From: an uncultured bacterium
Lineage (GTDB): Bacteria > Fidelibacterota > UBA2242 > JAFGTP01
Direction: 5' to 3'
NCBI GenBank assembly: GCA_964472715.1
Contig: CAYYMT010000002.1
Coordinates: 2,602-66,601, forward strand
Length of the DNA: 64,000 bases
Part shown: positions 20,315-62,130 of the stretch, in pieces
How positions within the stretch are numbered: position 1 is the first letter of the stretch
Layout: each line of letters opens with the position of its first letter
The notes under the pieces: generated by a model
What the model saw: the letters and a program-made list of their open reading frames with translations, nothing else
The model's database searches: none
Told to the model about the DNA's origin: nothing
Position numbers and translations under genes: made by a program

Positions 20315-20326
20315 ACGTCCCCTTTG

Positions 20327-21190: not shown

Positions 21191-21211
21191 TTAACCCTCT
21201 TTTTTTTGATT

Positions 21212-22471: not shown

Positions 22472-22749
22472 ATCACCTTCTCCATAATATCTTATCCGGT
22501 GAAAGTTAATAAAATAATTTGCTAACACACAAGTAGTTTTTTCCAAAATTAATAAATTTATTCTTTTCTGCTATAGGATTTTTTCAATTACAGATTTCCT
22601 CACTGGTTACTTTTCCTATAAAATCATTAAAACAATTGCAATAAAATGACAAAATTCCTGTATCTTTGATGACAACTAATTTCAATCTTTTTTAATCATA
22701 ATTTTGTTATGAATTGAAAATAGAATAAATTTCAAAAAAGGAGAAATCA

Positions 22750-48187: not shown

Positions 48188-50008
48188 TTATTTTACCAAT
48201 ACCATTTTTCTGGTGGTCACCAATCCTGCATCAACAAACAACCGATAAAAATATATTCCACTGGAATATTGCGAGCCATTCCATTTTGAGGAATAATTAC
48301 CAGCAATTTGTAATTTATCTACCAGGGTATCAATCTTACGGCCGTTAAGATCAAAAACTGATAACTCAACAGCACCATTTTTCTTTAATGAATATTCGAT
48401 AGTTGTCTCGGGATTAAAAGGATTGGGATAATTCTGTTCCAATTGAAACTTTTCCGGTAATGCCGCCTCATCCCCGATAGTGGTTTCCGCTACCTGGACA
48501 ATTTCCAGGCCATGGAGAAAGGCAAAATCCTGTGTCGCAGAAAAATGAATATCAATGACACAATCATTCACTTCGATATTTTCCACCAGCAAATCATAAG
48601 CGGTGTGAATTCCGCCGGCTTCCTTAAACACATCCAGTCCTTTGACCACATAATCACCTTCAATATTGATATCAAAGACCCGTTGGTCACTGGCAGTAAA
48701 ATAATTCTCAGAAAACATCAGTTTCACAGTGTAAATGCCTTTTGGAACCCGTACCTTATACATTACAAAATCCCGTATTTCGGTACGATAAACAGCGTCC
48801 AATGTAGTATTAGCGATAGGTTGTGTAGTTGAGCCTTCAGCACCGGGCATATAGCCGTAATTCTTTTCGAAATCCCACTCCTGGCCTGCCAGAAAATCTC
48901 CGGTAGCATCACCACCGACATTGATCTTCAGCGGATAAACATACTGCGGTGGATTCACAATATTCAAAAATTTTGGCGCGGAAACATTGGGTGTGGCCGT
49001 GCTGTCCTCAATATTCGTTACCATAATATCATGGGCCACAGACATATCATAATCCTTTACCGAAAGAATGACATCCCGTTGATTCTCCTGTAATTCAATG
49101 GCTGTGATTTCACCACCATTGCGCAAAATATAATTAGCAGAATTTTCCGCGCTGGCTTTCAAAACCGGCTCGGAGAACTCAATCTGAATTTGATGTCCGT
49201 CATACCAGGCGCCCTGGGGAATGGGTGGATTTTTGTCCGTGTAACCGGTATTGGTTCCATCTGTCAGGCAAAGTACCAGGTTACCGTCCCGGAAAACTGC
49301 ATTGTCTTTTATGAAATCACAGTTATTTCCAACAAAGGTATGGGTCGCTTTTCCCCAGCGGTTTTGGTCCCAGCTGTCAAAGTCATCTTTCCACTGAAGC
49401 GTAAAATTATTGTCCGTTCCCACGTCCCCGCTACCCGGTGTGTGGGTGGCGTAACTGACGTAATCATAATAAGCGAATTTCGGTAATGTAGCCGGATCAA
49501 GGGTACCCACCCAGTTTTGATAGGCCGGGGGCCAGATATTCATCATGATCTTTTGGCCCCGGTCCAGGGCTTCGATATGCGCGCCGGTCTGACGGTGCAT
49601 TTCCACCCCGTCAATAAACCAGGCCACATATTCCGGCGTCCATTCAAAAGCATAAACATGGAAGTCATCCGCCGGATCAAAATCCACCTGTTGATGATAG
49701 ACATGGTTCTGCTGCCCCGGTGTAATGGGATTGAACTGGACATCATTGTCATAGCGGCCCAGGATTTCTATATCAATTTCATTCCAGGCGGCGGTGCCTT
49801 CCCCTCCCAATTCATGGTAAGTAAAAAAAGTCGATGTATGCCCGGGGCCGATGGAAGATCTGTAGCGCACTTCAAAGCGGCCATAGGTAAAGGTGTCATG
49901 GGTACGGTATTCCGCACCTTTGTAAGTTTTACCGAACGCAGTCCAGCAAAGTACTATCAAAGCCAATATTAGTTTCATGATTTTTTGCATATTACATTTC
50001 CTGTTCAT
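48188..50008 (-). CDS. GH16-family beta-glucanase (laminarinase/licheninase-like) with a T9SS C-terminal sorting domain
   Basis: A signal peptide and the GH16 catalytic motif EIDIE in a beta-jelly-roll region, a middle beta-rich region, and a C-terminal roughly 80-aa Por/T9SS domain (NYPNPFNPETTIEYSL...GIYFYRL). The likely true start is ATG at 49990 (MQKIMKL), which has an AGGAAA RBS. Confidence 0.8.
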   Translation of the reverse strand: MNRKCNMQKIMKLILALIVLCWTAFGKTYKGAEYRTHDTFTYGRFEVRYRSSIGPGHTSTFFTYHELGGEGTAAWNEIDIEILGRYDNDVQFNPITPGQQNHVYHQQVDFDPADDFHVYAFEWTPEYVAWFIDGVEMHRQTGAHIEALDRGQKIMMNIWPPAYQNWVGTLDPATLPKFAYYDYVSYATHTPGSGDVGTDNNFTLQWKDDFDSWDQNRWGKATHTFVGNNCDFIKDNAVFRDGNLVLCLTDGTNTGYTDKNPPIPQGAWYDGHQIQIEFSEPVLKASAENSANYILRNGGEITAIELQENQRDVILSVKDYDMSVAHDIMVTNIEDSTATPNVSAPKFLNIVNPPQYVYPLKINVGGDATGDFLAGQEWDFEKNYGYMPGAEGSTTQPIANTTLDAVYRTEIRDFVMYKVRVPKGIYTVKLMFSENYFTASDQRVFDINIEGDYVVKGLDVFKEAGGIHTAYDLLVENIEVNDCVIDIHFSATQDFAFLHGLEIVQVAETTIGDEAALPEKFQLEQNYPNPFNPETTIEYSLKKNGAVELSVFDLNGRKIDTLVDKLQIAGNYSSKWNGSQYSSGIYFYRLFVDAGLVTTRKMVLVK

Positions 50009-50028
50009 TTATAAAAAAATGTTTCTCT

Positions 50029-50073
50029 CCCGAAGATTTAACTCCGGAAGAGAAACAAAAAGAAGGAGACATT
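50029..50073 (-). terminator. Rho-independent terminator after the outer-membrane barrel gene
   Basis: On the minus strand, a GTTTCTCTTCCGG...CGGGAGAGAAAC stem is followed by ATTTTTTTAT. Confidence 0.6.
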
Positions 50074-50085
50074 CATATTTGAAAT

Positions 50086-51150
50086 TTACAGACTAATTCC
50101 AAATGTATAGACGTGTACATTTCCCAGCACACCGATATCCCTGTAAGCATAATCAATTTTTAGCGCTGTATTTTTCAGCATATTGATTTGCACACCGCCA
50201 CCGACAGTCATACCATAAATGGACTCATCCATAAACAGCCCTTTATAACCGGCGCGGGCAAAGAGACTGCCGGTGCCCGGAATTTTCAGTTCGTATTGTC
50301 CACCTATATTGATGGATTCACTGTTATTGTTGGGATGTAGCGCATCAGCAGATACTGTCAACGCATTATACCGATTATTGATAGGAATCCAGGAAACACC
50401 GATTCTGAAAATTAAAGGCAATTCCCATTCACTCATGCGAAATTGACCGGGAACATCTTTGAAATTTCCATTTTCATCGGGTGCGATGTCAATGGGATAA
50501 ACCAGATCAATGCCATCGTATTGCATTTTTGTTCCGTAGTTGGAAATGCTCATTCCGATTCGCAACCCGTCTTCCTGTCTGCCGGTTGTGGAGAAAAATC
50601 CCGTGGACACCAGGGCCCCCAGGTCAATCGCCATGGCGCTGGCTTTGGAATGCCATATCTGTGAGGAGACATATTTGGCATTCGCCCCAAAACTGAACCA
50701 TTGGGCCAATTTACGTGCAAATCCAAGACTGAAACTATACTCATTGGATGTAAATTTTTCCCCTGTACCTTCCTGCATGGATAAAGTGGTGACATCGATA
50801 TCCCCGTAATCAATATGATGTATTCCGCCTGAGACAGTGCCGACGCCGGGAATAATATAGGCGCCAACAAAGGCGGTTGTGTTGATATCCACCAGCCAGG
50901 GTTGCTGCATGAATAAAAATTCACCACCCTCCATATGGGCCAAACCCGCCGGATTCCAATAAAAGGATGATATCTGACCGGGAATAGCCACAAAAGCATC
51001 GCCCATGGCCATTCCGTCGCTGCCAATTCCTGTTTCCAAAAAATTGCATGCTGTGGTTCCCACTCTGTATGGCTTTTGCGCAAAAAGTGTCCCCAGCATT
51101 ATTGTGATCAGAATTAGCATCGTAACGGGTAATTTTATCTTATTTACCAT
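50086..51150 (-). CDS. Outer-membrane beta-barrel protein, possibly a PorV/PorQ/PorP-like T9SS-associated barrel
   Basis: Signal peptide (MVNKIKLPVTMLILITIMLGTLFAQ) and alternating amphipathic beta-strands with Gly/aromatic-rich turns throughout. It sits immediately downstream of a T9SS cargo gene. The start is trimmed to ATG at 51150. Confidence 0.5.
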   Translation of the reverse strand: MVNKIKLPVTMLILITIMLGTLFAQKPYRVGTTACNFLETGIGSDGMAMGDAFVAIPGQISSFYWNPAGLAHMEGGEFLFMQQPWLVDINTTAFVGAYIIPGVGTVSGGIHHIDYGDIDVTTLSMQEGTGEKFTSNEYSFSLGFARKLAQWFSFGANAKYVSSQIWHSKASAMAIDLGALVSTGFFSTTGRQEDGLRIGMSISNYGTKMQYDGIDLVYPIDIAPDENGNFKDVPGQFRMSEWELPLIFRIGVSWIPINNRYNALTVSADALHPNNNSESINIGGQYELKIPGTGSLFARAGYKGLFMDESIYGMTVGGGVQINMLKNTALKIDYAYRDIGVLGNVHVYTFGISL

Positions 51151-51199
51151 AATTGTCCTTATATTTGATAATTTTTTCATCTTACTCATATCCTGATCT

Positions 51200-54100
51200 C
51201 TATTTAATAATTGCAAATTTTCCCATTTTCTCATCACCGGTTAAATTCGACTTGACATGATAAATATACATACCGGCAGCTACTTCCAGGTCTTCACGGG
51301 ATTTCAGGTCCCAGTGCGCGGTTCCGTTGTCGGAAGTATTATTCACCTCAATTTCATCGATAAATACACCACTGACTGTAAATATCTTAATGGTACATTG
51401 GGACGGAATGTGGGTGAACATGATCCGTCTGCGTTGATTCAAAAACTCATTCAACACCGAAGTTTCCATTTTATTGGTAGCGATGTAAGGATTAGGCACC
51501 ACTTTGATATCTTTCATGGTTTCTTCCAGGTCTTCCGTATCAAGAGAGTCACTGGCATTGACTTTAAACAGGATTCGGTCATCTTTCCAATAGGGGCGTT
51601 GAAAAGAGAGATGATACTCATCACCGGATTTTGGTAAATAGTCGGGATTTCCATTGGCATATGAAAAATCAATGACCATCACCGTACCGGCCCAATCGCC
51701 GGTCGTGTCAATCACACCCAGAAAAACACGATCTTTTAACATATCGAATTTACCATTTTGATTGACATCCTGAACAACTGCGTCCAGTATTTCATAATTT
51801 CCATCATCATCAGTGACAGATTTGTTGATCGCTTTCAATGGCAGGTCCGCGTCATTGATCAGGTTACGGCGTACATTTTGATTATCTTCATTCCGTACAC
51901 GGCGGGCAATACCCCGGCCGGTATAGATCACTTCGGTGGTATCGCCAAAGAGAATATCATATTCCCACGGAAACGCATGGCCTTCCGGGGTGACAGCGAC
52001 TTTCATCATAGCTTCACCAACCACCCAGCCGCTATTGGCATAGTCGATGTCAGCCGTTACCACCGGCAAATCAACGTTTAAACGCAACCCGTCAAACACA
52101 TCGGTTTTAATGGTTTTATTTTGGTTGATATAATAGGCCTCCAATGAGTCGCTGTGCATTATATTGGTGCCGCTGTAATTATCCTTATTTTCCCTGTAGA
52201 TCACTGATTTTGTATCGGCATCACGAACAATAACCCCGCTGTTGGTATAGCGGATACCATATTCGTAATCGTCCACATTATCAACGGTATCTATTTCAAA
52301 AAGAACTTCATAGGTTCTGTCGGTATTCAGGGCCTTTTTACCCAGAATTTCCGGTGATATCTCACCGCTGCCGAAGATTTCTCCGGTTTCCAGCATTTCA
52401 ATATTTTCCGGCACATATCCGGCGGCCTGCTGATAGGGTTTGACGATCTGAACATTTTTACTCATGCCGGTGATTGATTCGGAAGCGTCCAGTTCAATGA
52501 TAATATTGTTTTCAGAAGGCGCGATACCGGGGCCAATATGTTCGGCGCCATAGTCATAGGCCACAAGAGCATAATAATAGGTTCGTCCGTTTTCAACATT
52601 TTCATCGATGAAATAATGCCGAATACCTGAATCAGAACCGAGATAATATCCCATACCATTGACAAGGCCGAAGTTTGTAAACCCGGTTTTCAGGTCCTTT
52701 ACGTCACACTGGAAAATCGGTTTTTTGAATACTTTGTCACCATAACCGTCGGTAATGACTTCGGCGTCCTGCATCTTTTTATCTGTAGCGCGGTAGAGTT
52801 TATATCCCTCGAAATCATTAATATTACCCAGGAAAGGATCACGGGTTTTGGTATCCGCCATATCATCCCAGGTGAGGATCACTTTGCCATCTCCCGGTGT
52901 TGCAGTCAGCGTCGGCATATGGGGGGGCTGGGCAAATCTGTAGTCCTTTTCATAGATCACCTGGACAATGCGTTTCTTTTCGAATAAGGATGGCGCGACA
53001 AAACCATTTTCTTCCGTTAACCCTTCCAGGGGATCATAAGCGAATAACATAGCCATGGAAATACGTTCTGTTCTGCCGGCAGGAAGTGTAAAAGGGCCGG
53101 AAGCAAAGGTTTCGATCAGGTTGGAGCGGTCAGCAAAGTGGGTCTGCAATGTATCACCGCCGATCAATTCCCACATAGACTTATCATTTCTGAACCAATT
53201 TGTATAGGGCGGATTGTGGCTGGGGACACGGAAGAGCCTAAAAGTCGTTAATCCGATCATATCAGATTCGCTGACATCGGTGGCCGCGAAATTGGGTTCA
53301 CAACCAACACCTTCGACATAATCAGGTTTGTGGTTACACTCTCCCTCATCAGGGCCGGGATAATTCAGGTCATCAGGGCCGAGACCGTCAAGGCCCACAT
53401 CATCACCCGGATTTTCACCCGGATCATAAACCCCGTTGCCATTCAGGTCTTCGCCATCCATCCAGTCCTGATCTTCATCGCCGGACCAGTGATCTTTCAG
53501 GTCTTCTTCTTTCAGGTTGTAAAAGGCCAGAAATTTTTGCAGGTCAGCAATCCCATCATAAGGGCCCACCAGACTTCCGGCAGGATTATCACGCTTTTCA
53601 TCAATCAGGCCATCATCATCATTATCCAGCATATCATTGGGTTTTCCCGGGCTTTCCAGGTATGCAAATCCCATCAAACCGGTGGGTAATCCACCTGAAC
53701 CAACGCCATCAATGTCCCATGAATACGAAAGGTTCAGCAGTTTGTCAAAAAAACCAATATCATCTTCTGGAGCGTTGCCGCCGATGGCATTATCCACCCA
53801 ATACCCAAAAGCCACATCTTTGACTGTGTAATCCGAGATGTTGGCAATATTGTATTCCCAGAAAATCGCATCTCTGGCCTGCGGATTATTCCATTGAAAC
53901 CCCCGTTGTTCCACACGGATGCCAATACCTCCCCAGGGAGCGCCTCTTTGTTTTGTGACTTTATGGCCAAAACGGGGATGGTCACCAATAAAAACGCCGG
54001 GACGGGGATAATAACGGGAAGTACCCTCGGGTCGTAAGATATATTCCTGATCCTGGGCATCATTGGTAACAAAAAAGGTCTCCAGGTCGGCATATTTTAC

Positions 54101-54670: not shown

Positions 54671-54726
54671 ATTTATTTTATCTCCCCGGGTATTAGTTTT
54701 TTTTAATTGCTTCATTTTTTTCTCCG

Positions 54727-57522
54727 TTAAAAATTAATACCCATTCCTAGTTTTATAGTACGCGGCGCTGAATACATAGCTGGATTCTGATATGTATCTT
54801 TATATTCATTGAAATTACTTCTGTGGGTAAGCAGATCACTTTCCCGGACGATGGCGGTGTAAGCGCGTCCCGTTGTCGGGTTGACCCAGTTTTCATTTAA
54901 TCTGTCCATCAGGTTATAAATTGACAATGTGAATCTGAGACTGATGTTGTCGCTGATCTGCAAATTATAGTAGCCATTAAAATCAACCGACGTGCCGCTG
55001 GGCTGCCAGGCATTATTGTTATATAAATTCACCCGGGATAAGACACTTTCTTCAATCGGCGCCCAGGTATAGGGTGTTCCGGAATTGTAATAAGCGATCA
55101 TTGTACCGCCAAATTTCGGCGTATTATATCCCAGTGAAAGATTGAAAGTATGGCGCTGGTCCCAATTCATCGGGATCATAACCGGAATCGGATCCATATT
55201 ATTCCCGGCGCGGGTAAAGGTTTGTGTGGGATTATCAGCCACACCCCGTGTATACTGCAAAGTATAATTTATCATTGCCGAGACATGGTTCCAGAAAAAA
55301 TTATATTTTAATTCCAGTCCACGGACATTACCATAATCTTTATTGGTGTATAGTCCGTATTGAATCTGGTTGTAGGTGGAGACCACTTTGGTACTTAACA
55401 GGTCATAAATATCACGATAAAACAGCGCCACATCAACATCCATATAGTCATTGAGTTGCTGCCACAATCCCACTTCATACTGAACCGTTTTTTCAGCTTT
55501 CAGATTGGGATTACCCAGAATGGTCCCAAAATCATTGGGCGGGATCAGAAAACTGTGGTTCTGAAACATGGATTCCATTTGCGGATTCTGGAAAAAATGG
55601 CCGTAACTAAAGTGTAATACGGCGGTGCTGGCCAATGTATAGGAAAGCCCCAGCCGCGGACTGAACTGCGCCTTGACATCAGCATCAACATAATCGGACA
55701 TTCTTTCGGGATCAGGAATTTCATTACCATTTTCATCCAGCATAGGATTTCCATTGTCATCAACCAGGGGGAAAAAGATAGAATTATCAGGATTCCGCCA
55801 CTGGCTTGGCACCTTGGTGGCCGGATCAAAATAATCATAACGCAAGCCGATATTCATAACCAGGTCACCAAAACTGATCTCATCCTGCAGATAGGCTGAA
55901 AACTCCTGCGGTTTGACTTGATAGATATCGGAATAAACAGTTGAATCCGGGAGAGTTATCGGCGCGTAACTGGAATCATATTTCACTTTTAAAGTACCAT
56001 CATCCAGGGTGGTCCAATAAAATTCACCCTCTTTGTCTGTATTGCGAAATTTATTTAACACTGTCCGGTATTTATTATCCAAATCGTGCTGAACCAGTTG
56101 AAATCCGGTCTTGAATTTGTGGTGTTTGGTCACTTGCCAGGTGGCATCAAATTTCAAATTATCCTGGGCCATAGTTCTCATGGTATGGCCTTTCTGCTGC
56201 CCGCCGGTATAAAATCCGGGGCCGTAATTGGTCAGATATATATCATGGACATAGCGGTCATCATGGGGATCTTCAAAAACATACCAGCCAAAATCATTGA
56301 CCATGCGCTGATATTTCATTTCATAAAAAAATCTTTCCGATAGGGATTGATTCAGGGAAAAGGCCAGCATATTGGAATTACGATGGGCCGTTCCCATTCC
56401 ATCGGGATTATATTTAAAGGCGTGATCATAACTATTCCATTCATCAATATTTAATGTGTAGAGCATGGAAATATTGAGCCTTTCAAACAGCCGTGTCGAA
56501 ACCTTGGCCATCACGGACTGCATAATATCCCGGTCCATGGGTACATAAGCGCTGTCACCGGTCTGTTCGGTATACCACATAGATTCATTTTCACCACTGT
56601 AATCGCTCAGGTTATCCACATCAAACCGGCGTATGCCATTCAAGTAGTTTTTATTATCCCGGTATCTGTAATTAACAAAAAAGTGTAAATGATCTTTGAC
56701 AATCGGCCCGCTGAGATTGATTTTAAAATCCTTGTTGCGGTCAACTTCCGCCGGATCCAGTCCTATGAAAATATGGTCATTGGCTGTAAAGTAATTTGAT
56801 AATGCTCCGGAGAAACCACCGTGAAATTCATTTGACCCGGACTTGGTAACAGCATTCACAATACCGCTCATAGCTTTTCCGTATTCAGCATTAAAGGTTC
56901 CGGTGATCACTTCCAGATCGGAAATGGCTTCCTTTTCCACTTCCACAGCGCGCCCGGCGCCACCAAAAGAATCGTCAACCTGCATTCCATCGATCATATA
57001 TGACACTTCTGTTGTGCGGCCGCCGCGAAAATGGCCATTGACCACACCGGCCTGCATGGATACAATACTACCAATGTCCTCGACGGGTAATAACTCCATA
57101 ACTTCAGAACTGACATTTTTCACTGTCGAAGTCTGATCCCGTTTGGTTGTGATCTTATCGGCCTGGACAATAACCGCTTCGCCTTCCAGCATACCCTGGG
57201 TTAGATCGAAATTTACATAAGAGGTTCGGTTTACAGAGACACGTACATCTTCTATGATCATGGGCTCATACCCAATCATAGATGCTTTGATATCGTAATT
57301 TCCAGGTCTGAGGTTGATGATATAGTAATCCCCGTTCATATCAGTAGCAGCGCCAACATTCTCTTCCATTATGATTATATTGGTACCGATGAGCGGCTCG
57401 CCGGTTTTTTTATCAACAACTTTCCCGGAAATTTTTCCCGTGGTCTGGCCAAACAAAAGACCCGCCTGGAAAATCAGTATCATCAATATTAGGAACAATT
57501 TATAATTGTTTGATTTAGACAT
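54727..57522 (-). CDS. TonB-dependent outer-membrane receptor with an N-terminal carboxypeptidase-regulatory-like domain (SusC/RagA-like layout)
   Basis: 931 aa with a signal peptide and a CarbopepD_reg-like domain (GKISGKVVDKKTGEPLIGTNI...GNYDIKASMIGYEP), then a plug, a 22-strand barrel and a terminal aromatic residue (GMGINF). Confidence 0.85.
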   Translation of the reverse strand: MSKSNNYKLFLILMILIFQAGLLFGQTTGKISGKVVDKKTGEPLIGTNIIIMEENVGAATDMNGDYYIINLRPGNYDIKASMIGYEPMIIEDVRVSVNRTSYVNFDLTQGMLEGEAVIVQADKITTKRDQTSTVKNVSSEVMELLPVEDIGSIVSMQAGVVNGHFRGGRTTEVSYMIDGMQVDDSFGGAGRAVEVEKEAISDLEVITGTFNAEYGKAMSGIVNAVTKSGSNEFHGGFSGALSNYFTANDHIFIGLDPAEVDRNKDFKINLSGPIVKDHLHFFVNYRYRDNKNYLNGIRRFDVDNLSDYSGENESMWYTEQTGDSAYVPMDRDIMQSVMAKVSTRLFERLNISMLYTLNIDEWNSYDHAFKYNPDGMGTAHRNSNMLAFSLNQSLSERFFYEMKYQRMVNDFGWYVFEDPHDDRYVHDIYLTNYGPGFYTGGQQKGHTMRTMAQDNLKFDATWQVTKHHKFKTGFQLVQHDLDNKYRTVLNKFRNTDKEGEFYWTTLDDGTLKVKYDSSYAPITLPDSTVYSDIYQVKPQEFSAYLQDEISFGDLVMNIGLRYDYFDPATKVPSQWRNPDNSIFFPLVDDNGNPMLDENGNEIPDPERMSDYVDADVKAQFSPRLGLSYTLASTAVLHFSYGHFFQNPQMESMFQNHSFLIPPNDFGTILGNPNLKAEKTVQYEVGLWQQLNDYMDVDVALFYRDIYDLLSTKVVSTYNQIQYGLYTNKDYGNVRGLELKYNFFWNHVSAMINYTLQYTRGVADNPTQTFTRAGNNMDPIPVMIPMNWDQRHTFNLSLGYNTPKFGGTMIAYYNSGTPYTWAPIEESVLSRVNLYNNNAWQPSGTSVDFNGYYNLQISDNISLRFTLSIYNLMDRLNENWVNPTTGRAYTAIVRESDLLTHRSNFNEYKDTYQNPAMYSAPRTIKLGMGINF

Positions 57523-57546
57523 AAAAATTCCTTTTAGAATCCTTAA

Positions 57547-57589
57547 TTAAAAAAGTTGAGAGAGTCATTTTTGTATAACTCTCTCAACT
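57547..57589 (-). terminator. Hairpin terminator or attenuator between a T9SS cargo gene and the TonB receptor gene
   Basis: On the minus strand, a perfect 10-bp GTTGAGAGAG...CTCTCTCAAC stem is followed by TTTTTTAATT. Confidence 0.55.
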
Positions 57590-57599
57590 GTAATTGTAT

Positions 57600-60182
57600 T
57601 TATTTCATTAATAACATTTTTTTGGTGCTGACAAAATCCCCGGCCTGTAATCTGTAAATATACATACCGGAAGCAAAATTTGCCGCATCCCACCGGACAT
57701 TATAGACGCCGGCTTTTTGGTTTTTATTAACCAACTGGGCGACTTTTTGTCCGAGTACATTGTAAACACTGATCTTAACCAAGTCAGCTTTTGCAATGGA
57801 GTAATTGATGGTTGTGGTGGGGTTGAACGGATTTGGATAATTCTGTTCCAGGCTGAATTCCGTTGCAAAGGATTCATCAACATCATCATCCACACCAACA
57901 TATCCGTATTGATCACCGATGAAGGTGTAGGTCCATTCTGTCGGTGTCTGCCATGCGGCATCTGTATTGTTAGGCGACCATCCAAGGGCTGATTCATGGG
58001 TTGTTGTGCCATCATCATTGTCATGAACATATATTTCAATCGGGATTTTCATACCGTTTTTCGGATAGAACCGGGCTTCATCATCGGTTTTGATGCTGTC
58101 CAATGATATTTTGGCTTCGAAAACATAGTCCGGATCAAAACCTTCGAAATAGTAATTTTCATGATCCAGATCCATGGAATATCCTGAAGTCACTTCATCA
58201 GTAAATCCATTGGCTCTGATTTGAAATTTGTGGTCCGGCTCATTGCCTTTTTGATAATTCTGATGGGCGCCGCCGGTTTGATTGTATAGTCCGATAAAGA
58301 AGTCAATCGCGTCATTGGTCCACCAGTCCTGATTGTCGGAATGATAGAAAACATCATCAATAACATCGCCGGCAATATAGAGATAGTCATCATCAATCGC
58401 CAGGTATACGGAGGCTTTGAGGTCTGTACTGTCAGCCATTGAACCAACTACTACATAATCGGTTTCCGGTTTCAGTACAATCGGCTCAATCCCTGCATCC
58501 CACCATTCGTCCAGATAACCATCGGCTTCAAAATCAGGCACATTCAGAGAAATGGTCGGCACACCTTTAGCCATACCGGTTACCATTCCGGAAAATCCGG
58601 CTTCACCTTCATTGCCCGCGGCGTCACGGCAAACTACAGCATAGTAGAAATCAACCTGTCCGTCAACCAGGGGATATTTCAGATGGTGAGCAACCGCCTG
58701 GGTACCTTCCAGAACACCTGAGGCCAATTTTTCAACCATCGGGCCGGTGACAGAGTCAATGGGTTCTGAAGATGCATAAACATCATAAACTTCACCATCT
58801 TCACCTTCCACATCCTGCCACATCACCAGGTTATAGTACTGTGACGGATAAGGTGTGGCGCTGACACCGGAAGGCGCTTCCGGCGGGAACAGGTCAAATA
58901 CGGGATTTCCGATCACGATATCATCCAGATAAACGACTTCTCCCAAAGCTGCTGTTGAACCCATTAAGATTTTCAGATCTTTCAATCTTGACGTATCCAT
59001 CAGGGCATCATAAACCATGGTTTCGCCATTCCAGGCACCACCATTTCTGTCAAAATCACTCAACGGAATTTCAACTTCTTTCCAGGTGCCGTCATAGCCG
59101 ACTTCTTCTTCTTTTAACATATAAAAGGCTTCATAACCCAGGTCAGGGCCGTCGCCATCCATATCATCATCAGCCAGCACAATTTTCAAAGAATCCAGTC
59201 CGGCGTCTGCTTTAATTTTAAATTTTAAGGACTCGGTTAACCAACTCATCATAGTGTTCGCCGGATTGTCCAGTGTAAACACCAGACCATCCCAGAGCGC
59301 CCAGTCATTGGGTGGTAAATTCCATTTAATGGATGATGTGCCACCTTCCGGATAAGCGTCTTCTTCTTCGGTAATTTCATAGGAACCACCGCCCCAGCCG
59401 CCGTATAGAGATACATTGGCAGGAAGCGCCCGCCCATTAAAGAATGTTACATCAACAGCATTCGCACCGGTCAATGCCAAACGGTCCAATAAAATAACAC
59501 CATGAGCACGGTCACCTTCACCGGCACCGGAAATGGAAAGTTCGATATCCACAGACTTAATGTGTTCCTTGTCAATAACAGCGTTATTAACAACACCGGC
59601 CCATCCGGTTAAATTAAAGGCCGAACCATCCCAGGCATAAGTGTTTTCAATGGCAATTTTTTTCTCATTCCAACCCGGTTCCATATCTACCAGGCCGTCA
59701 GTGAGAGAATAGTAGTATTCCGCATTGATATTGCTGCTGGCAGTATCGCCCGCCGGGGCCTCTGCCACATCTGTCAGGTTAACTCTAAAATTGATACGGC
59801 CGCTTTTTGAACATGCCTCATCCACATAATACCAGAGAGATAATGTGTCATAGCCGGTAAAATCAAAGGATTTTGTGGAATCTGCTAAACTAAAACCTAA
59901 TTTCTGGTAACCACCCCAACTTTCGGCATTATGAACACTGTATTCCCAGCGCAGGGCTTTTGTTCCTTCATGAACAGGGTCTTCTACCCAGGTCAGACGG
60001 GAATATCCGGAATCCGGATCACTGTTTTCATTGCGTTCATAATACAACTGTGTTTCATTATAACCGGACATGGTAGTATCCAATTCTTCATCAAAACTTT
60101 GCAGCATCCTGTCAAAATCCCCTGCAAAGGCAACACTGGCAACGAGCACAAGTGTCAGTAACAATAACATTTTACTTTTCAT
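57600..60182 (-). CDS. Secreted T9SS cargo protein with carbohydrate-binding-like beta-sandwich domains, function unknown
   Basis: 860 aa with a signal peptide (MKSKMLLLLTLVLVASVAFA), several beta-sandwich/CBM-like segments, and a C-terminal T9SS domain (NYPNPFNPTTTINYSI...GMYIYRLQAGDF). Confidence 0.7.
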   Translation of the reverse strand: MKSKMLLLLTLVLVASVAFAGDFDRMLQSFDEELDTTMSGYNETQLYYERNENSDPDSGYSRLTWVEDPVHEGTKALRWEYSVHNAESWGGYQKLGFSLADSTKSFDFTGYDTLSLWYYVDEACSKSGRINFRVNLTDVAEAPAGDTASSNINAEYYYSLTDGLVDMEPGWNEKKIAIENTYAWDGSAFNLTGWAGVVNNAVIDKEHIKSVDIELSISGAGEGDRAHGVILLDRLALTGANAVDVTFFNGRALPANVSLYGGWGGGSYEITEEEDAYPEGGTSSIKWNLPPNDWALWDGLVFTLDNPANTMMSWLTESLKFKIKADAGLDSLKIVLADDDMDGDGPDLGYEAFYMLKEEEVGYDGTWKEVEIPLSDFDRNGGAWNGETMVYDALMDTSRLKDLKILMGSTAALGEVVYLDDIVIGNPVFDLFPPEAPSGVSATPYPSQYYNLVMWQDVEGEDGEVYDVYASSEPIDSVTGPMVEKLASGVLEGTQAVAHHLKYPLVDGQVDFYYAVVCRDAAGNEGEAGFSGMVTGMAKGVPTISLNVPDFEADGYLDEWWDAGIEPIVLKPETDYVVVGSMADSTDLKASVYLAIDDDYLYIAGDVIDDVFYHSDNQDWWTNDAIDFFIGLYNQTGGAHQNYQKGNEPDHKFQIRANGFTDEVTSGYSMDLDHENYYFEGFDPDYVFEAKISLDSIKTDDEARFYPKNGMKIPIEIYVHDNDDGTTTHESALGWSPNNTDAAWQTPTEWTYTFIGDQYGYVGVDDDVDESFATEFSLEQNYPNPFNPTTTINYSIAKADLVKISVYNVLGQKVAQLVNKNQKAGVYNVRWDAANFASGMYIYRLQAGDFVSTKKMLLMK

Positions 60183-60437
60183 ACTTCCTCCTTCTGAAAA
60201 TTAGATTGTCTAAATATCAAGATCTCCTCTTGAATTTTGTTTTTTATTTTTTTGAAATTTTCTAACGATCAGGATCAATTCACCGATAATGCCTAAAATT
60301 AATATGACAATAAGAACATTTATTCCAATCATTAACATTCTCCAATTAGCAATTGACTATTTGTTCATATCAAACTCCAGACCAAACCTCTATTTGCGAG
60401 GACATCAGTAGGAAAAATATTTTTGTAGCAACCTCTT

Positions 60438-60476
60438 TTTATCATTTTGATAAATAATTTTTATCTTTTCGATAAA
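60438..60476. promoter_or_regulatory. Array of four alternating TTTATC/GATAAA half-sites (two 17-bp palindromes), a candidate enhancer or regulator binding site
   Basis: TTTATC(60438-43)-N5-GATAAA(60449-54)-N5-TTTATC(60460-65)-N5-GATAAA(60471-76). The array lies about 100-140 bp upstream of the candidate sigma-54 promoter. Confidence 0.4.
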
Positions 60477-60573
60477 AGTCAGGGTTAGTGATTTTTTTTA
60501 CTATCCTCTTTTGCATTTTTAAAACGGTATCTAATTTTTTGTAATAGCCAGTCTGTCTGATTTTGGATCTGTA

Positions 60574-60590
60574 GTGGTATATCCTTTGCT
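60574..60590 (+). promoter_or_regulatory. Candidate sigma-54 (-24/-12) promoter
   Basis: TGGTAT-ATCCT-TTGCT has the conserved GG (60576-77) and GC (60588-89) at the canonical 10-nt spacing and matches the TTGC -12 element. It sits next to a sigma-54-dependent enhancer-binding protein gene. Confidence 0.4.
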
Positions 60591-62130
60591 CTATAATTTT
60601 AATATCAAAAAGGAGACGAACATCAAATTTTTAAAAATATTACTGATCCAAATATTCCTTCTATTATTGGTTGCGGGCCCTCTTTTTTCCAACACCAGGA
60701 TCATGGTTCATTACATGCCCTGGTACCAGTCCCGGGAATACTCAGGCCGCTGGGGATGGCACTGGACCATGGACCATTTTAATCCGAACCAGATGAATGC
60801 TAAAGGAGAACGTGAAATCGCCTCCCATTACTACCCCCTCACCGGCCCCTATGATTCACGGGATGATAATCTGTTGGAATACCAGGTTTTACTGATGAAG
60901 CTGAGTGGCGTCGATGGCGTGATTGTGGATTGGTACGGGATCAAAGATTATAATGATTACCTGGTTCTCCATGAAAGTACTCAGGCTCTTATATACTGGA
61001 TTGAAGAAGCTGACATGGAATTTTCAATCTGTTATGAGGACCGCACAATCAAGGCAATGGTTGACGACGGGCATTTTACTGCCGCCCGGGCGCTGAACCA
61101 CGGGAAGGAAGTAATGAATTTTTTAGGTAATAATTGGTTCGGCAAGGACTTTTATACCAAACTGGACGGGCAACCAGTCTTGCTCAGCTGGGGCCCGGTT
61201 TATTTCAAAAGCAGTTCGGACTGGGAAACCATGTTCGCAGAGTTGGAGCCAAAACCACATTTATTCACCTATGAAAACAGATTGGCCCCAATTGCCATCG
61301 GCGCATATCCCTGGCCGCCCATGTGGAAATCCAAAAACGGAGTTTTAAGCCCCATTGACCTCAATCTTTACCTGACCTCCTTTTATCAAAATTCCCTGAA
61401 CTGGGACTACCTGGTTGCAACCGCTTTCCCTGGATTTCATGATATCTATGAAGAGGCGGGATTGCACAATTCCTATGGCTACCTGGATGCGGCTGACGGT
61501 GAAACCTTTCGCAACACCATTGCCACAGCCATGTCTTATGAACCGGAAATTTTACAGGTCGCAACCTGGAATGATTATGGCGAAGGTACGATTGTCGAAC
61601 CTACCAGGGAATTTGGATATCAATATCTTGATGAAATTCAAAATACGCGCAGGACCTATATTGACTCTACTTTCAACTATCAGCCGGAATTCCTGGAAAT
61701 GCCATTGAAAATATATGAATTGCGGCAGGAATACAGCAACAGTTCCGCTGTCCAGAATATGCTGGACGATGCCTTTTATCATATCGTAGACGGAAATATT
61801 CAGGATGCCCAGGATATTGTCAACAGTTTATATCCACAAAATATTGATGCCATTGATCAGCAGGCAACCTTCTATAAAATAGGAAATTTTTATCCAAACC
61901 CCTTTAATCCTGTGACTACCCTGAAATTACATTTATCGCGATCCATGCCGGTAAAAATCAATATCTATGATTTGCAGGGAAACCTGGTGGATACCTTAGC
62001 CAATCAGCGCTACCAGCAGGGAGACCATATTGTTCAATGGGATGCTGAGAGTTTCACCAGCGGGGTTTACTTTGTAAAGATTTTTAGTGAAGAATTTACC
62101 GCAAGCCGTAAAATTGTGCTCATGAAATAA
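60574..62130 (+). CDS. Secreted GH99/GH71-like (beta/alpha)8 glycoside hydrolase with a T9SS C-terminal sorting domain
   Basis: The N-terminal catalytic region (HYMPWY...GRWGWHW...HYYPLTGPYDSRD...SGVDGVIVDWYG) resembles endo-alpha-mannosidase/mutanase-type hydrolases. The C-terminal Por domain reads FYPNPFNPVTTLKL...GVYFVKIF. The annotated GTG start at 60574 overlaps the candidate promoter, so the real start is probably downstream, possibly a non-AUG start at 60622. Confidence 0.6.
   Translation: MVYPLLYNFNIKKETNIKFLKILLIQIFLLLLVAGPLFSNTRIMVHYMPWYQSREYSGRWGWHWTMDHFNPNQMNAKGEREIASHYYPLTGPYDSRDDNLLEYQVLLMKLSGVDGVIVDWYGIKDYNDYLVLHESTQALIYWIEEADMEFSICYEDRTIKAMVDDGHFTAARALNHGKEVMNFLGNNWFGKDFYTKLDGQPVLLSWGPVYFKSSSDWETMFAELEPKPHLFTYENRLAPIAIGAYPWPPMWKSKNGVLSPIDLNLYLTSFYQNSLNWDYLVATAFPGFHDIYEEAGLHNSYGYLDAADGETFRNTIATAMSYEPEILQVATWNDYGEGTIVEPTREFGYQYLDEIQNTRRTYIDSTFNYQPEFLEMPLKIYELRQEYSNSSAVQNMLDDAFYHIVDGNIQDAQDIVNSLYPQNIDAIDQQATFYKIGNFYPNPFNPVTTLKLHLSRSMPVKINIYDLQGNLVDTLANQRYQQGDHIVQWDAESFTSGVYFVKIFSEEFTASRKIVLMK

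What the first reader, a model, noticed from the sequence alone, without database searches (positions are those of the whole stretch)
48188..62130. T9SS-cargo glycan-utilization locus: a SusC-like receptor without SusD, two giant unknown cargo proteins, GH16 and GH99/GH71-like enzymes
Five secreted proteins here end in the Por/T9SS sorting domain: the GH16 enzyme, the 1156-aa Ca-repeat protein, the 860-aa CBM-like protein and the GH99-like enzyme. They are interleaved with a 931-aa TonB-dependent receptor carrying a CarbopepD_reg N-domain and an outer-membrane beta-barrel placed directly after a cargo gene, as PorP/SprF-type partners often are. No SusD-like gene lies next to the receptor. This looks like a non-canonical polysaccharide-utilization locus that may target beta-glucan or alpha-mannan. 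It is built from T9SS-anchored surface enzymes rather than lipoprotein Sus components. The two largest proteins have no assignable catalytic domain.
Basis: partly seen in the sequence, partly recalled or inferred. Interest (0 to 1): 0.55.

Follow-up and report, generated by a model that had tools for sequence, protein, structure and literature searches.

The report
SusD-less, T9SS-linked beta-glucan uptake cassette
This locus is one copy of a widespread, apparently undescribed gene cassette in which a TonB-dependent outer-membrane importer always travels with a ~1,150-residue unannotated surface protein and a PorV-like barrel; here it is flanked by secreted beta-glucan-binding and beta-glucan-cutting proteins, so it looks like an alternative to the SusC/SusD sugar-uptake system.

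Summary
The genes are real and sit at the stated coordinates. Three proteins carry canonical T9SS type-A sorting domains: GH16, the 860-aa CBM9 protein and the GH99-like protein. The 1171-aa protein carries a divergent sorting domain, so the count is four, not five. The GH16 is a circularly permuted lichenase of the Fibrobacter type. The receptor is a TonB-dependent transporter but not SusC, and no SusD gene is present. The barrel belongs to the PorV/PorQ family, not PorP/SprF.

The main result is comparative. The trio of receptor, 1171-aa protein and PorV-like barrel is adjacent in 61 of 61 related loci with enough flank. These loci come from Marinimicrobia, KSB1, Calditrichota (including cultured Caldithrix abyssi), Ignavibacteriota, Rhodothermales and other Bacteroidota. 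A sorting-domain protein usually lies just upstream, and the flanks hold varied CAZymes, sugar transporters and LacI regulators. The large protein has no Pfam domain, yet its family has about 3,500 clusters at 50% identity.

Best reading: a SusD-independent, T9SS-dependent glycan capture and import module, here for beta-glucan, in which the large protein is held on the surface by its dedicated PorV-like carrier. This is a new variant of a known kind. The GH99-like gene is not part of the conserved module.

The parts
57600..60182 (-). 860-aa secreted multi-module glycan-binding protein: signal peptide, N-terminal beta-rich modules, FN3-like module, CBM9 (residues 554-750), type-A T9SS sorting domain (782-857). 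It is the conserved gene just upstream of the receptor.
   Evidence: Pfam CBM9_1 scores 44.2 bits (cut-off 23.4) and Por_Secre_tail 41.9; TIGR04183 scores 50.4. A profile of 22 orthologs matches the T. maritima Xyn10A CBM9 structure 1i82 at E 8.9e-11. Orthologs of 41-42% identity occupy the same position in KSB1 and other lineages.
57554..57589 (-). Strong hairpin of 15 base pairs followed by a T-run, in the 77-nt gap between the CBM9 gene and the receptor gene. Probably an intercistronic attenuator or terminator.
   Evidence: dG -21.3 kcal/mol. A comparable hairpin plus T-run sits between the upstream cargo gene and the receptor gene in 30 of 55 related loci. Inside the trio the figures are 1 of 72 and 2 of 68.
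54727..57522 (-). 931-aa TonB-dependent transporter: signal peptide, CarboxypepD_reg N-terminal extension (31-119), TonB-box-like AVIVQAD (116-122), plug (127-220), beta-barrel (408-871). It is not a SusC-family member.
   Evidence: Pfam. The SusC/RagA model TIGR04056 scores 46.7 bits against a cut-off of 368 and matches only the N-terminus. No solved structure matches at E <= 1e-4. Orthologs are 55-58% identical in other phyla. The TonB-box-like motif was located.
51200..54715 (-). 1171-aa ORF, probably starting at Met16 (54670) to give 1156 aa. This is the conserved large surface protein with no Pfam domain. Layout: signal peptide; ~590-residue all-beta N-terminal domain with Asp-rich Ca-type loops (361-450); FN3-like module (~596-760); variable beta-sandwich region (~761-1065); divergent sorting domain (1066-1171, nt 51203-51520).
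   Evidence: No Pfam hit for this protein, nor for 32 diverse members apart from weak FlgD_ig and CHU_C matches. 1,792 homologs were found, with 57-64% identity across phyla. There are 3,542 clusters at 50% identity with E <= 1e-3. N-domain model: pLDDT 91.8, pTM 0.90. C-terminal half: beta-sandwiches. Sorting-domain homology.
50086..51189 (-). PorV/PorQ-family outer-membrane barrel, proposed to be the dedicated carrier and anchor of the large protein. The ORF extends to 51237; the likely start is ATG 51189 or 51150, just after the stop of the preceding gene at 51200.
   Evidence: NF033709 PorV_fam scores 204.9 bits (cut-off 90). It falls below the PorV (85.9 vs 250) and PorQ (86.4 vs 220) equivalog cut-offs. 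The only PDB match is F. johnsoniae PorV 6h3i_F, E 3.3e-9. Start candidates are listed. A PorV-like gene is adjacent to the large-protein gene in 67 of 69 loci.
50020..50057 (-). Strong hairpin of 16 base pairs followed by T7, in the 77-nt gap between the PorV-like gene and the GH16 gene.
   Evidence: dG -25.0 kcal/mol.
48188..50008 (-). 606-aa secreted endo-beta-glucanase: signal peptide, circularly permuted GH16 lichenase domain (26-255, EIDIE at 77-81), linker module, malectin/CBM57-like domain (360-493), type-A sorting domain (527-603).
   Evidence: Pfam GH16 scores 90.3, Malectin 68.9 and Por_Secre_tail 40.7 bits. The catalytic domain aligns along its full length and in the same order with F. 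succinogenes 1,3-1,4-beta-glucanase (3axd E 4e-46; 1mve, 1zm1), including the permuted C-terminal strands. Orthologs of 45% identity occur in related loci.
60574..62130 (+). 518-aa ORF for a secreted GH99-clan (GH99/GH71/WbsX-like) glycosidase with a type-A sorting domain (440-515). It is divergently transcribed and is not part of the conserved cassette. The start codon is uncertain (GTG 60574, TTG 60586 or ATC 60622).
   Evidence: Pfam GH99 scores 36.9 bits (cut-off 33, N-terminal 90 residues only), WbsX 36.7 and GH71 20.2 (below 34). A family profile matches BtGH99 4acy at E 3.3e-13 in three colinear segments. WNDYGEG lies at residues 332-338, aligned to the NEWHEG of GH99. The orthologous loci have no homolog.
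60575..60590 (+). Sigma-54-like -24/-12 element TGGTATATCCTTTGCT, just upstream of the AAGGAG and signal-peptide coding region of the GH99-like gene.
   Evidence: The position is suggestive, but the count of such matches in the window (25) is no higher than chance (28 expected).
62136..63584 (-). NtrC-type sigma-54-dependent response regulator, next to a HATPase_c ORF at 63594-63983. A possible regulator of the neighbourhood.
   Evidence: Sigma54_activat scores 240 bits, with Response_reg and AAA_lid_14 also matched; HATPase_c.

Best explanation
The locus is a beta-glucan member of a widespread, SusD-independent, T9SS-dependent glycan capture and import cassette found in bacteria of the Fibrobacteres-Chlorobi-Bacteroidetes group.

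Shown: the core is a tight three-gene unit made of a non-SusC TonB-dependent transporter, a ~1,150-residue secreted protein and a PorV/PorQ-family barrel. This unit is conserved in order and sequence across at least five phyla. It is nearly always preceded by a gene for a sorting-domain surface protein (here a CBM9 protein) and is surrounded by CAZymes, sugar transporters and sugar regulators.

Inferred mechanism:
1. All surface parts cross the inner membrane by Sec and the outer membrane by the T9SS. None has a lipoprotein signal.
2. The CBM9 protein captures beta-glucan on the cell surface. The GH16-malectin enzyme, a permuted lichenase type, cuts it into oligosaccharides.
3. The large protein is exported with its own PorV-like carrier and stays bound to it through its unusually conserved PorU/PorZ-like sorting domain. 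It is therefore anchored in the outer membrane next to the transporter.
4. Its conserved all-beta N-terminal domain works with the transporter as a SusD-like lid or hand-over partner, while its variable beta-sandwich region may set glycan specificity.
5. The transporter imports the oligosaccharides using TonB energy. Periplasmic GH3 enzymes and SSF or ABC importers, which lie inside the locus in relatives but elsewhere in this genome, finish the job.

Rough confidence by step: glycan-utilisation role about 0.85; anchoring by the barrel about 0.55; SusD-like role about 0.35.
For: Synteny. The receptor is adjacent in 65 of 67 loci, the PorV-like gene in 67 of 69, and both in 61 of 61 loci with enough flank. 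The loci come from Neomarinimicrobiota, KSB1, Calditrichota, Ignavibacteriota, Rhodothermales and other Bacteroidota MAGs.

Same five-gene set elsewhere. CBM9 protein, receptor, large protein, PorV-like barrel and GH16-malectin occur together in KSB1 and other lineages, at 42, 57, 61, 57 and 45% identity respectively. The set is also in cultured Caldithrix abyssi DSM 13497, together with GH9, GH18, LacI, GH3, SSF and GH5.

Flanks of more distant cassettes. They carry GH9, GH2, GH30, GH5, GH59, CE2 and CBM6 cargo, plus GH130, GH3, GH94, GH92, LacI, ABC and SSF genes.

Several cassettes per genome. Two contigs of one MAG each carry a copy (L009 and L036; L032 and L042), and tandem copies of the large-protein gene occur in L013, L069 and L075.

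Sorting domain of the large protein. It is homologous to type-A sorting domains. It is the most conserved region of the family, 0.60 against 0.34 for the variable region. Its nearest relatives by three methods are the PorZ and PorU sorting domains: the NCBIfam PorZ model matches the C-terminus at E 1.9e-5, Foldseek ranks 5m11 and 6za2 among its top hits, and the family profile matches 6za2 at E 0.007 and 5m11 at E 0.07. PorU and PorZ are the T9SS proteins whose sorting domains are retained and bound to PorV and PorQ (PMC10202324). The cognate carrier-protein concept is described in PMC10994853.

Enzyme and binding modules. GH16 and CBM9 are confirmed.

Operon shape. Gaps inside the trio are about 10 nt. 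Hairpins bracket the trio in the window, and a hairpin precedes the receptor gene in 30 of 55 loci against 1-2 within the trio.
Against: There are no experimental data for any member. The physical association of the three proteins is inferred only from gene order. The N-terminal domain has no convincing structural relative: the best Foldseek TM-score is about 0.33, to the beta-supersandwich accessory domains of GH116, GH94 and GH15-type enzymes. A binding or lid role is therefore a guess. The very high conservation of the large protein (57-64% identity across phyla) is unlike SusD or SGBPs, which diverge quickly. A fifth conserved gene, SurA/PPIase-like and about 500 aa, follows the barrel in most relatives but is absent from this window. 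No GH3 or inner-membrane sugar importer lies in this copy of the locus. The hairpins could instead be full terminators that separate the genes into independent units. The match to the PorU and PorZ sorting domains is weak in every single test.
Confidence: 0.6

Rival explanations
1. The large protein and the PorV-like barrel form a local T9SS attachment or sorting module. They would be a non-peptidase counterpart of PorZ-PorQ or PorU-PorV that processes or anchors the neighbouring sorting-domain cargo (CBM9 protein, GH16). The transporter alone would do the import, and the large protein would not touch the glycan or the transporter.
For: The nearest relatives of its C-terminal region are PorZ and PorU. 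It always lies beside a PorV/PorQ-family barrel and sorting-domain cargo genes. A SurA/PPIase-like gene often follows the barrel.
Against: Several paralogous cassettes occur per genome, each with different CAZymes, whereas a general attachment machine should be single-copy. No PorU or Peptidase_C25 match was found, and no Cys/His pair is invariant across the family. The model shows no PorZ-like beta-propellers. The transporter is as tightly linked as the barrel (61 of 61 loci).
Confidence: 0.17
2. The large protein is a surface enzyme of an undescribed family, either a glycoside hydrolase or lyase or a Ca-dependent glycan-processing enzyme, and not a binding or lid protein.
For: It is exceptionally conserved, with many invariant Asp, Glu, Trp and Arg residues in the N-terminal domain. 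Its weak fold matches are all to carbohydrate-active enzymes: GH116, GH94, a GH15-type dextran dextrinase and PL26.
Against: The matched parts of those enzymes are their non-catalytic N-terminal beta-sandwich domains, and TM-scores are at most 0.33. No (alpha/alpha)6 or TIM-barrel domain is predicted. The same conserved core accompanies loci for chemically different glycans, marked by GH16, GH9, GH2, GH59 and GH130. That argues against a single catalytic specificity.
Confidence: 0.13
3. The genes are unrelated neighbours: ordinary secreted CAZymes next to a TonB receptor for some other nutrient. On this view there is no functional unit.
For: The hairpin terminators between genes could mark independent transcription units. 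The GH99-like gene really is not conserved with the rest.
Against: The trio is syntenic in 61 of 61 loci across phyla. The CBM9 and GH16-malectin genes recur next to it even in Ignavibacteria, where the large protein is only 31-34% identical. Gaps inside the trio are about 10 nt. The flanks are dominated by carbohydrate genes.
Confidence: 0.03

Closest known systems
Bacteroidota polysaccharide utilisation loci built on SusC/SusD pairs
   Same: Both have a TonB-dependent transporter with a CarboxypepD_reg-type N-terminal extension. Both are co-localised with surface glycan-binding proteins, endo-acting glycanases, sugar regulators and downstream glycosidases and importers. Both occur as several paralogous loci per genome with different CAZymes.
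   Different: The transporter is not SusC family (46.7 vs 368 bits). There is no SusD and there are no lipoproteins. The surface parts carry T9SS sorting domains. The transporter's invariant partners are an all-beta ~1,150-residue protein and a PorV-family barrel.
TonB-dependent-transporter loci without SusD: proteobacterial carbohydrate-utilisation (CUT) loci and the atypical cellulose PUL chu_1276-chu_1280 of Cytophaga hutchinsonii (PMC12016534)
   Same: All couple a TonB-dependent transporter with CAZymes and outer-membrane or surface binding proteins, with no SusD. The C. hutchinsonii case shows experimentally that non-SusD outer-membrane partners can be essential for glycan use.
   Different: The partner proteins differ. 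As the paper describes them, CHU_1277-1279 are outer-membrane and SGBP-B-like proteins (CHU_1279 is 375 aa), with no PorV-like barrel mentioned. Their sequences were not compared here. The CUT loci are recalled from general knowledge and were not tested.
T9SS proteins that keep their sorting domain bound to a cognate carrier barrel: PorU-PorV, PorZ-PorQ, SprB-SprF
   Same: In each case a sorting-domain protein is encoded next to a PorV-superfamily barrel. The sorting domain of the large protein is closest to those of PorZ and PorU. The published model holds that a cognate barrel protects the sorting domain from cleavage and anchors the protein (PMC10202324; PMC10994853).
   Different: The large protein is neither PorU (no C25 peptidase domain) nor PorZ (no propellers). 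The barrel falls below the PorV and PorQ equivalog cut-offs. The pair is genetically fused to a nutrient transporter rather than to the secretion machine.
Fibrobacter succinogenes 1,3-1,4-beta-glucanase (PDB 1mve, 1zm1, 3axd)
   Same: The GH16 catalytic domain aligns along its full length (E 4e-46) with the same natural circular permutation and the E-I-D-I-E catalytic motif.
   Different: The enzyme here is fused to a malectin/CBM57-like module and a T9SS sorting domain. Its activity and linkage preference are untested.
GH99 endo-alpha-1,2-mannosidases/mannanases and GH71 alpha-1,3-glucanases
   Same: The GH99-like protein belongs to the same clan. Its family profile matches BtGH99 over three colinear segments (E 3e-13), and a GH71-like WNDYGE motif aligns with the GH99 catalytic NEWHE.
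   Different: It is a member of neither family by curated thresholds over the whole domain. The first catalytic Glu is replaced by Asp. Specificity is unknown. It is not syntenic with the cassette.

Membership tests
Canonical SusC/SusD PUL | Transporter belongs to the SusC/RagA family (TIGR04056) | tested here: not met
   46.7 bits against a cut-off of 368.25; only the N-terminal 30-153 matches.
Canonical SusC/SusD PUL | SusD-like gene adjacent to the transporter gene | tested here: not met
   The neighbours are the CBM9 protein and the 1171-aa protein. Neither has a SusD Pfam hit, and no free ORF lies in the 11-77 nt gaps.
Canonical SusC/SusD PUL | Surface components are lipoproteins | tested here: not met
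   The signal peptides read end in ...FG|K...FA|G...FG|Q and ...FA|Q, with no lipobox Cys. The proteins carry T9SS sorting domains instead.
Canonical SusC/SusD PUL | Co-localised CAZymes and glycan-binding proteins | tested here: met
   GH16, CBM9 and malectin in the window. GH3, GH5, GH9, GH16, SSF and LacI in orthologous loci.
TonB-dependent transporter | Plug domain, 22-strand-type barrel domain and a TonB box | tested here: met
   Plug scores 29.2 bits and TonB_dep_Rec_b-barrel 110.7 bits. The TonB-box-like AVIVQAD sits at 116-122 between the N-terminal extension and the plug. The motif was identified by eye, not by a model.
T9SS type-A sorting-domain cargo (TIGR04183 / PF18962) | C-terminal domain scores above the curated cut-off (GH16, 860-aa protein, GH99-like protein) | tested here: met
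   43.0, 50.4 and 44.3 bits against a cut-off of 23. Pfam scores are 40.7, 41.9 and 45.7 against 27.
T9SS type-A sorting-domain cargo (TIGR04183 / PF18962) | C-terminal domain scores above the curated cut-off (1171-aa protein) | tested here: inconclusive
   16.9 bits, below the cut-off of 23, and an HMM of cargo sorting domains does not detect it at E <= 1. Profile-profile comparison nevertheless gives 97.2% probability, E 4e-11. PNP and GxY-type motifs are visible, with a 15-20 residue insertion. It is a divergent subtype.
PorV/PorQ family outer-membrane barrel | Matches NF033709 above the cut-off | tested here: met
   204.9 bits against 90, over the full length of the model. The PDB match is F. 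johnsoniae PorV, E 3.3e-9.
PorV proper / PorQ proper | Matches the equivalog models NF033710 / NF033711 above their cut-offs | tested here: not met
   85.9 against 250, and 86.4 against 220. It represents a separate clade of the family.
PorP/SprF type-B carrier | Matches a PorP/SprF model | tested here: not met
   No PorP/SprF family appears among the NCBIfam or Pfam hits at E <= 0.01.
PorU (C25 sortase) / PorZ | Catalytic C25 domain with a Cys/His dyad (PorU), or two beta-propellers (PorZ) | tested here: not met
   There is no Peptidase_C25 or PorU hit, and the PorZ model scores 23.3 against 260, matching only the C-terminal 70 residues. No Cys or His is invariant outside the sorting domain in the diverse alignment. 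The models show beta-sandwiches, not propellers.
GH16 lichenase, circularly permuted F. succinogenes type | E-x-D-x-E catalytic motif and colinearity with the permuted fold | tested here: met
   EIDIE lies at residues 77-81. Residues 27-255 align with residues 5-235 of 3axd, E 4e-46.
GH16 lichenase, circularly permuted F. succinogenes type | 1,3-1,4-beta-glucan endo-hydrolase activity | not testable with these tools
   The NCBIfam BglS equivalog scores 149 bits against a cut-off of 300, and that model has the non-permuted order. An enzyme assay is needed.
CBM9 | Matches the CBM9 model and a solved CBM9 structure | tested here: met
   PF06452 scores 44.2 bits against 23.4. The ortholog profile matches 1i82 at E 8.9e-11.
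GH99 | Full-length match to the family, with both catalytic Glu residues of the NEWHE motif | tested here: inconclusive
   PF16317 scores 36.9 bits against 33, but over the N-terminal 90 residues only. The profile matches 4acy at E 3.3e-13 in three segments. The motif here is NDYGE, so the first Glu is Asp.
GH71 | Matches PF03659 above the cut-off | tested here: not met
   20.2 bits against 34. The PDB GH71 structure 9fnf matches at E 0.0078, in the WNDYGE region only.

The most novel reading that the evidence does not exclude
The transporter, the ~1,150-residue protein and the PorV-like barrel assemble into one stable outer-membrane machine. This would be a second, evolutionarily independent solution to SusC/SusD. 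A T9SS carrier barrel has been recruited as the permanent membrane anchor for the transporter's extracellular partner. The machine has diversified into many glycan-specific paralogs across Marinimicrobia, KSB1, Calditrichota, Ignavibacteriota and Rhodothermales.
Probability: 0.38. Interest if true: 0.85.

Novelty: new variant of a known kind. Interest (0 to 1): 0.7.

Why it matters
SusC/SusD loci explain glycan foraging in Bacteroidota and underpin the tools that predict it from genomes. Abundant relatives in sediments, oxygen-minimum zones and hot springs degrade polysaccharides too, and the cassettes examined here contain no SusD. These relatives include Marinimicrobia, KSB1, Calditrichota and Ignavibacteriota.

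A conserved cassette of transporter, large surface protein and PorV-like barrel would give a recognisable genomic marker for glycan-uptake loci in these lineages. It would assign a role to a Pfam-less family of thousands of proteins. It would also extend the job of PorV-family carriers from secretion to permanent anchoring of a nutrient-uptake partner.

The idea is directly testable in cultured Caldithrix abyssi, where the cassette was confirmed here. Rhodothermus marinus may be a second test system: a published xylan locus (Rmar_1070-1072) appears to contain an unrecognised copy, but this was not confirmed by sequence.

Tried and rejected
PorU-like sortase. I first suspected one, because porU and porV are adjacent in Bacteroidota and PorU is also about 1,150 aa. 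I rejected this: there is no C25 or PorU match and no conserved Cys/His pair.

Structure prediction. The full-length prediction from a shallow alignment gave a poor N-terminal half (pLDDT 62). Redoing residues 35-620 with a deeper alignment gave pLDDT 91.8. Foldseek against the PDB then returned only weak partial matches, with TM-scores of at most 0.33.

Failed look-ups. Exact-sequence look-up of the window protein and of Calab_3088 found nothing. A sibling sequence did locate the C. abyssi locus.

Rhodothermus marinus. I tried to confirm that Rmar_1071 belongs to the family by searching with a Rhodothermales homolog. No R. marinus name appeared among the best 120 hits. That link rests only on the published gene table.

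Literature. Nine literature searches found no description of the cassette. The library lacks most subscription journals, so the absence is not proof.

Sigma-54 promoter. The scan gave 25 matches against 28 expected by chance. The element before the GH99-like gene is therefore only a lead, and none was seen upstream of the CBM9 gene.

Small ORF. My tblastn check of the small hydrophobic ORF upstream of the CBM9 gene used the wrong frame and was not repeated.

Full report
**Observation.**
- On the minus strand, in order of transcription: an 860-aa protein (57600-60182), a 931-aa TonB-dependent receptor (54727-57522), a 1171-aa protein (51200-54715), a barrel protein (50086-51237) and a 606-aa GH16 protein (48188-50008). 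The barrel gene probably starts at 51189 or 51150.
- On the plus strand: a 518-aa GH99-like protein (60574-62130).
- Canonical T9SS type-A sorting domains pass the curated thresholds in the GH16, 860-aa and GH99-like proteins.
- The 1171-aa protein fails the threshold (TIGR04183 16.9 bits against 23), and an HMM built from 131 neighbouring cargo sorting domains does not find it. A profile of its C-terminus still matches the cargo profile at 97.2% probability, E 4e-11.
- The window has no other sorting domain. The count is therefore three canonical plus one divergent, not five.

**Gene by gene.**
- GH16. The catalytic domain aligns along its full length with Fibrobacter succinogenes 1,3-1,4-beta-glucanase (3axd E 4e-46; 1mve, 1zm1). 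The alignment includes the strands that in Bacillus lichenases are N-terminal but here follow the catalytic core. This is the natural circular permutation of the Fibrobacter enzyme. EIDIE lies at residues 77-81. A malectin/CBM57-like module and the sorting domain follow.
- 860-aa protein. It contains a genuine CBM9 (Pfam 44.2 bits; ortholog profile against T. maritima Xyn10A CBM9 1i82, E 8.9e-11).
- Receptor. It has a CarboxypepD_reg N-terminal extension, a TonB-box-like AVIVQAD, a plug and a barrel. It is not SusC (46.7 against 368 bits) and has no solved relative at E <= 1e-4.
- Barrel. It is PorV/PorQ family (204.9 against 90 bits) but falls below both the PorV and PorQ equivalog cut-offs, and no PorP/SprF model is matched. 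F. johnsoniae PorV is its only PDB match.
- GH99-like protein. It belongs to the GH99/GH71/WbsX clan. A family profile matches BtGH99 in three colinear segments (E 3.3e-13), and WNDYGEG aligns to the catalytic NEWHEG. Its specificity cannot be called.
- None of the signal peptides has a lipobox (sequences). No SusD gene fits in the locus.

**The key result is comparative.**
- The 1171-aa protein has no Pfam domain, yet 1,792 homologs were scored. The best 120 are 57-100% identical over the full length, and those named by a source include Marinimicrobia, KSB1 and Calditrichota.
- An exhaustive search of cluster representatives finds 3,542 clusters at 50% identity with E <= 1e-3, and 426 with E <= 1e-30.
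- A scan of one genome per GTDB species confirmed at least 564 loci. The best 80 come from Neomarinimicrobiota, KSB1, Calditrichota, Ignavibacteriota, Rhodothermales, other Bacteroidota MAGs and a few others.
- In these loci the order receptor, large protein, PorV-like barrel is essentially invariant. The receptor is adjacent in 65 of 67 loci, the barrel in 67 of 69, and both in 61 of 61 loci with enough flank. Three loci have the order receptor, barrel, large protein. Three have tandem copies of the large-protein gene.
- A sorting-domain protein lies directly upstream of the receptor in most loci.
- In the close subfamily this upstream protein is the ortholog of the 860-aa CBM9 protein, and a GH16-malectin ortholog lies nearby. 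The identities to the window proteins are 42, 57, 61, 57 and 45% for the five proteins in a KSB1 locus. GH3, a second GH16, GH5 and an SSF symporter are common additions.
- The same set is present in the cultured type strain Caldithrix abyssi DSM 13497 around Calab_3088. That organism grows on cellobiose, glucomannan and xyloglucan (PMC5317091).
- More distant cassettes are flanked by other CAZymes: GH9, GH2, GH30, GH5, GH59, CE2 and CBM6 among the sorting-domain cargo, and GH130, GH3, GH94, GH92 and GH31 among other neighbours, with LacI regulators and ABC or SSF sugar importers.
- Single MAGs carry more than one cassette (L009 and L036; L032 and L042).
- The published xylan locus of Rhodothermus marinus lists Rmar_1069 Xyn10A (sorting domain), Rmar_1070 TonB receptor, Rmar_1071 hypothetical (sorting domain) and Rmar_1072 hypothetical (PMC6987092). 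This looks like an unrecognised copy, but I could not confirm it by sequence.

**A fifth gene.** A gene of about 500 aa follows the barrel in most loci. In distant cassettes it carries PPIC-type PPIase or SurA-like signatures. The close-subfamily versions are homologous to these but are not detectable by Pfam. This gene is missing from the window.

**Anatomy of the large protein.**
- With a shallow alignment only the C-terminal half was modelled well. It consists of FN3/Ig-like beta-sandwiches and a sorting domain.
- With a deeper alignment, residues 35-620 fold confidently (pLDDT 91.8, pTM 0.90) into an all-beta domain with long Asp-rich loops.
- Foldseek against the PDB gives only partial matches, with TM-scores up to 0.33, to the beta-supersandwich accessory domains of GH116, GH94-type phosphorylases, cyclic glucan synthase, a GH15-type dextran dextrinase and PL26. 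The fold class is common in carbohydrate enzymes, but nothing similar overall has been solved.
- Across a diverse alignment the sorting domain is the most conserved region (0.60). The beta-sandwich region 761-1065 is the least conserved (0.34).
- The sorting domain has the PNP and GxY-type motifs of type A, plus a family-specific insertion of 15-20 residues with invariant Glu, Gln and Arg.
- By three independent but individually weak tests its nearest relatives are the sorting domains of PorZ and PorU: the NCBIfam PorZ C-terminus match at E 1.9e-5, the Foldseek top hits 5m11 and 6za2, and the family profile against the PDB, where 6za2 scores E 0.007 and 5m11 E 0.07.
- PorU and PorZ are the T9SS proteins whose sorting domains are not cleaved and stay bound to the PorV and PorQ barrels. 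A review proposes that cognate PorV-like barrels protect sorting domains from cleavage (PMC10202324). Cryo-EM work established that substrates bind the extracellular loops of a cognate carrier barrel, which can remain as their anchor (PMC10994853).

**Operon shape.**
- Gaps inside the trio are about 10 nt.
- Two strong hairpins with T-runs sit exactly in the 77-nt gaps before the receptor gene and after the barrel gene (dG -21.3 and -25.0).
- The gaps leave no room for promoters. I therefore read the hairpins as attenuators or RNA-end stabilisers that set relative expression. This is an inference.
- Across related loci a hairpin plus T-run precedes the receptor gene in 30 of 55 cases. It is almost never found inside the trio (1 of 72 and 2 of 68).
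- A sigma-54 response regulator and a kinase fragment lie upstream. A sigma-54-like -24/-12 element precedes the GH99-like gene, but such matches are no more frequent in the window than chance predicts.

**Mechanism proposed.**
- Shown: this is a conserved three-gene core, linked across phyla to sorting-domain glycan-binding and glycan-cutting proteins and to sugar catabolism.
- Inferred:
  1. The surface proteins are exported by Sec and the T9SS.
  2. The CBM9 protein captures beta-glucan, and the permuted GH16 lichenase-type enzyme cuts it.
  3. The large protein is carried out by its dedicated PorV-like barrel and remains anchored to it.
  4. Its conserved N-terminal domain cooperates with the transporter, and its variable region may contact the glycan.
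  5. The transporter imports the oligosaccharides.
- I put the glycan-utilisation role at about 0.85, the barrel anchoring at about 0.55 and a SusD-like role at about 0.35.

**Rivals.**
- A local T9SS attachment module, analogous to PorZ-PorQ, serving the neighbouring cargo (0.17). It is disfavoured by the multiple paralogous cassettes per genome, by the equally tight link to the transporter, and by the lack of PorU or PorZ catalytic or propeller domains.
- An undescribed surface enzyme (0.13). It is disfavoured because the same conserved core accompanies chemically different glycan loci, and because the fold matches are to non-catalytic domains.
- Coincidental neighbours (0.03). This is contradicted by the synteny.

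**Comparison with known systems and novelty.**
- Functionally this is a PUL-like locus based on a TonB-dependent transporter. It fails the defining SusC and SusD tests.
- The nearest published concepts are transporter loci without SusD, such as the C. hutchinsonii chu_1276-1280 cluster (PMC12016534), and T9SS pairs of a carrier barrel with a retained sorting domain.
- I found no description of this cassette or of the large-protein family in nine literature searches. The library is incomplete, so prior description cannot be excluded.
- I rate it a new variant of a known kind, with the window locus a typical beta-glucan member.
- The GH99-like gene is an add-on. Its homologs are common in the same lineages, but it is absent from the orthologous loci.

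**Limits.**
- Everything about complex formation, sorting-domain retention and substrate is inferred from sequence, gene order and analogy.
- MAG taxonomic labels may include binning errors.
- The organism is not identified. The best named hits suggest Marinimicrobia.
- Two structure libraries were unavailable.

Noticed in passing
window 57554-57589(-) and 50020-50057(-); related loci L001-L086: Strong hairpins with T-runs bracket the three-gene core. A comparable hairpin lies between the upstream cargo gene and the receptor gene in 30 of 55 related loci, but almost never inside the trio (1 of 72 and 2 of 68). This suggests a conserved intercistronic attenuator that sets expression ratios.
   Followed up: partly
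window 60575-60590(+), 62136-63584(-), 63594-63983(-): A sigma-54-like -24/-12 element (TGGTATATCCTTTGCT) sits just before the ribosome-binding site of the GH99-like gene. It lies next to an NtrC-type sigma-54 activator and a HATPase_c ORF. The number of such matches in the window is no higher than chance.
   Followed up: partly
window 60574-60640(+): The start codon of the GH99-like gene is unclear: GTG 60574, TTG 60586, or ATC 60622 six bases after AAGGAG. The version in the public database (P0271, 445 aa) starts later and lacks the signal peptide, although the protein carries a T9SS sorting domain.
   Followed up: partly
window 60210-60338(-): A 42-codon ORF encoding a hydrophobic, single-helix-like peptide (MLMIGINVLIVILILGIIGELILIV...) lies in the 391-nt gap upstream of the CBM9 gene. 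My conservation check used the wrong frame and was not repeated.
   Followed up: no
related loci, e.g. L001:16004-17524, L005:14705-16228, L045:14554-16038, L087:14640-16187: A fifth conserved gene of about 500 aa follows the PorV-like gene in most related loci. It is SurA/PPIase-like in distant cassettes and not detectable by Pfam in the close subfamily. It has no homolog anywhere in this window.
   Followed up: partly
L013:282-10980, L069:6726-13204, L075:622-6419: Two or three copies of the large-protein gene lie in tandem and share a single PorV-like gene. This suggests that several variants can use one carrier barrel.
   Followed up: no
window 16967-22546(-): A separate sugar-metabolism cluster holds a GHMP (galactokinase-like) kinase, an SSF sodium:solute symporter, an NTP-transferase and a ROK-family regulator. 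The SSF protein matches (E 2e-32) the SSF gene that sits inside the cassette loci of relatives.
   Followed up: partly
window 48188-50008(-), residues 26-255: The GH16 domain is naturally circularly permuted like the Fibrobacter succinogenes lichenase. This explains why the Pfam and NCBIfam models, which have the Bacillus order, cover only part of it.
   Followed up: yes
window: N-termini of the genes at 54727-57522, 51200-54715 and 50086-51237: The predicted signal-peptidase I sites of the receptor, the large protein and the barrel all expose an N-terminal Gln (LFG|Q, LFG|Q, LFA|Q). This matches the Q-rule described for Bacteroidetes (PMC5837995).
   Followed up: no
window 34882-37842(+): A 986-aa protein combines a response-regulator receiver domain, DUF5752 and a PEP-utilising (PPDK_N) domain, next to a hybrid histidine kinase (37857-39776). 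It appears unrelated to the finding.
   Followed up: no
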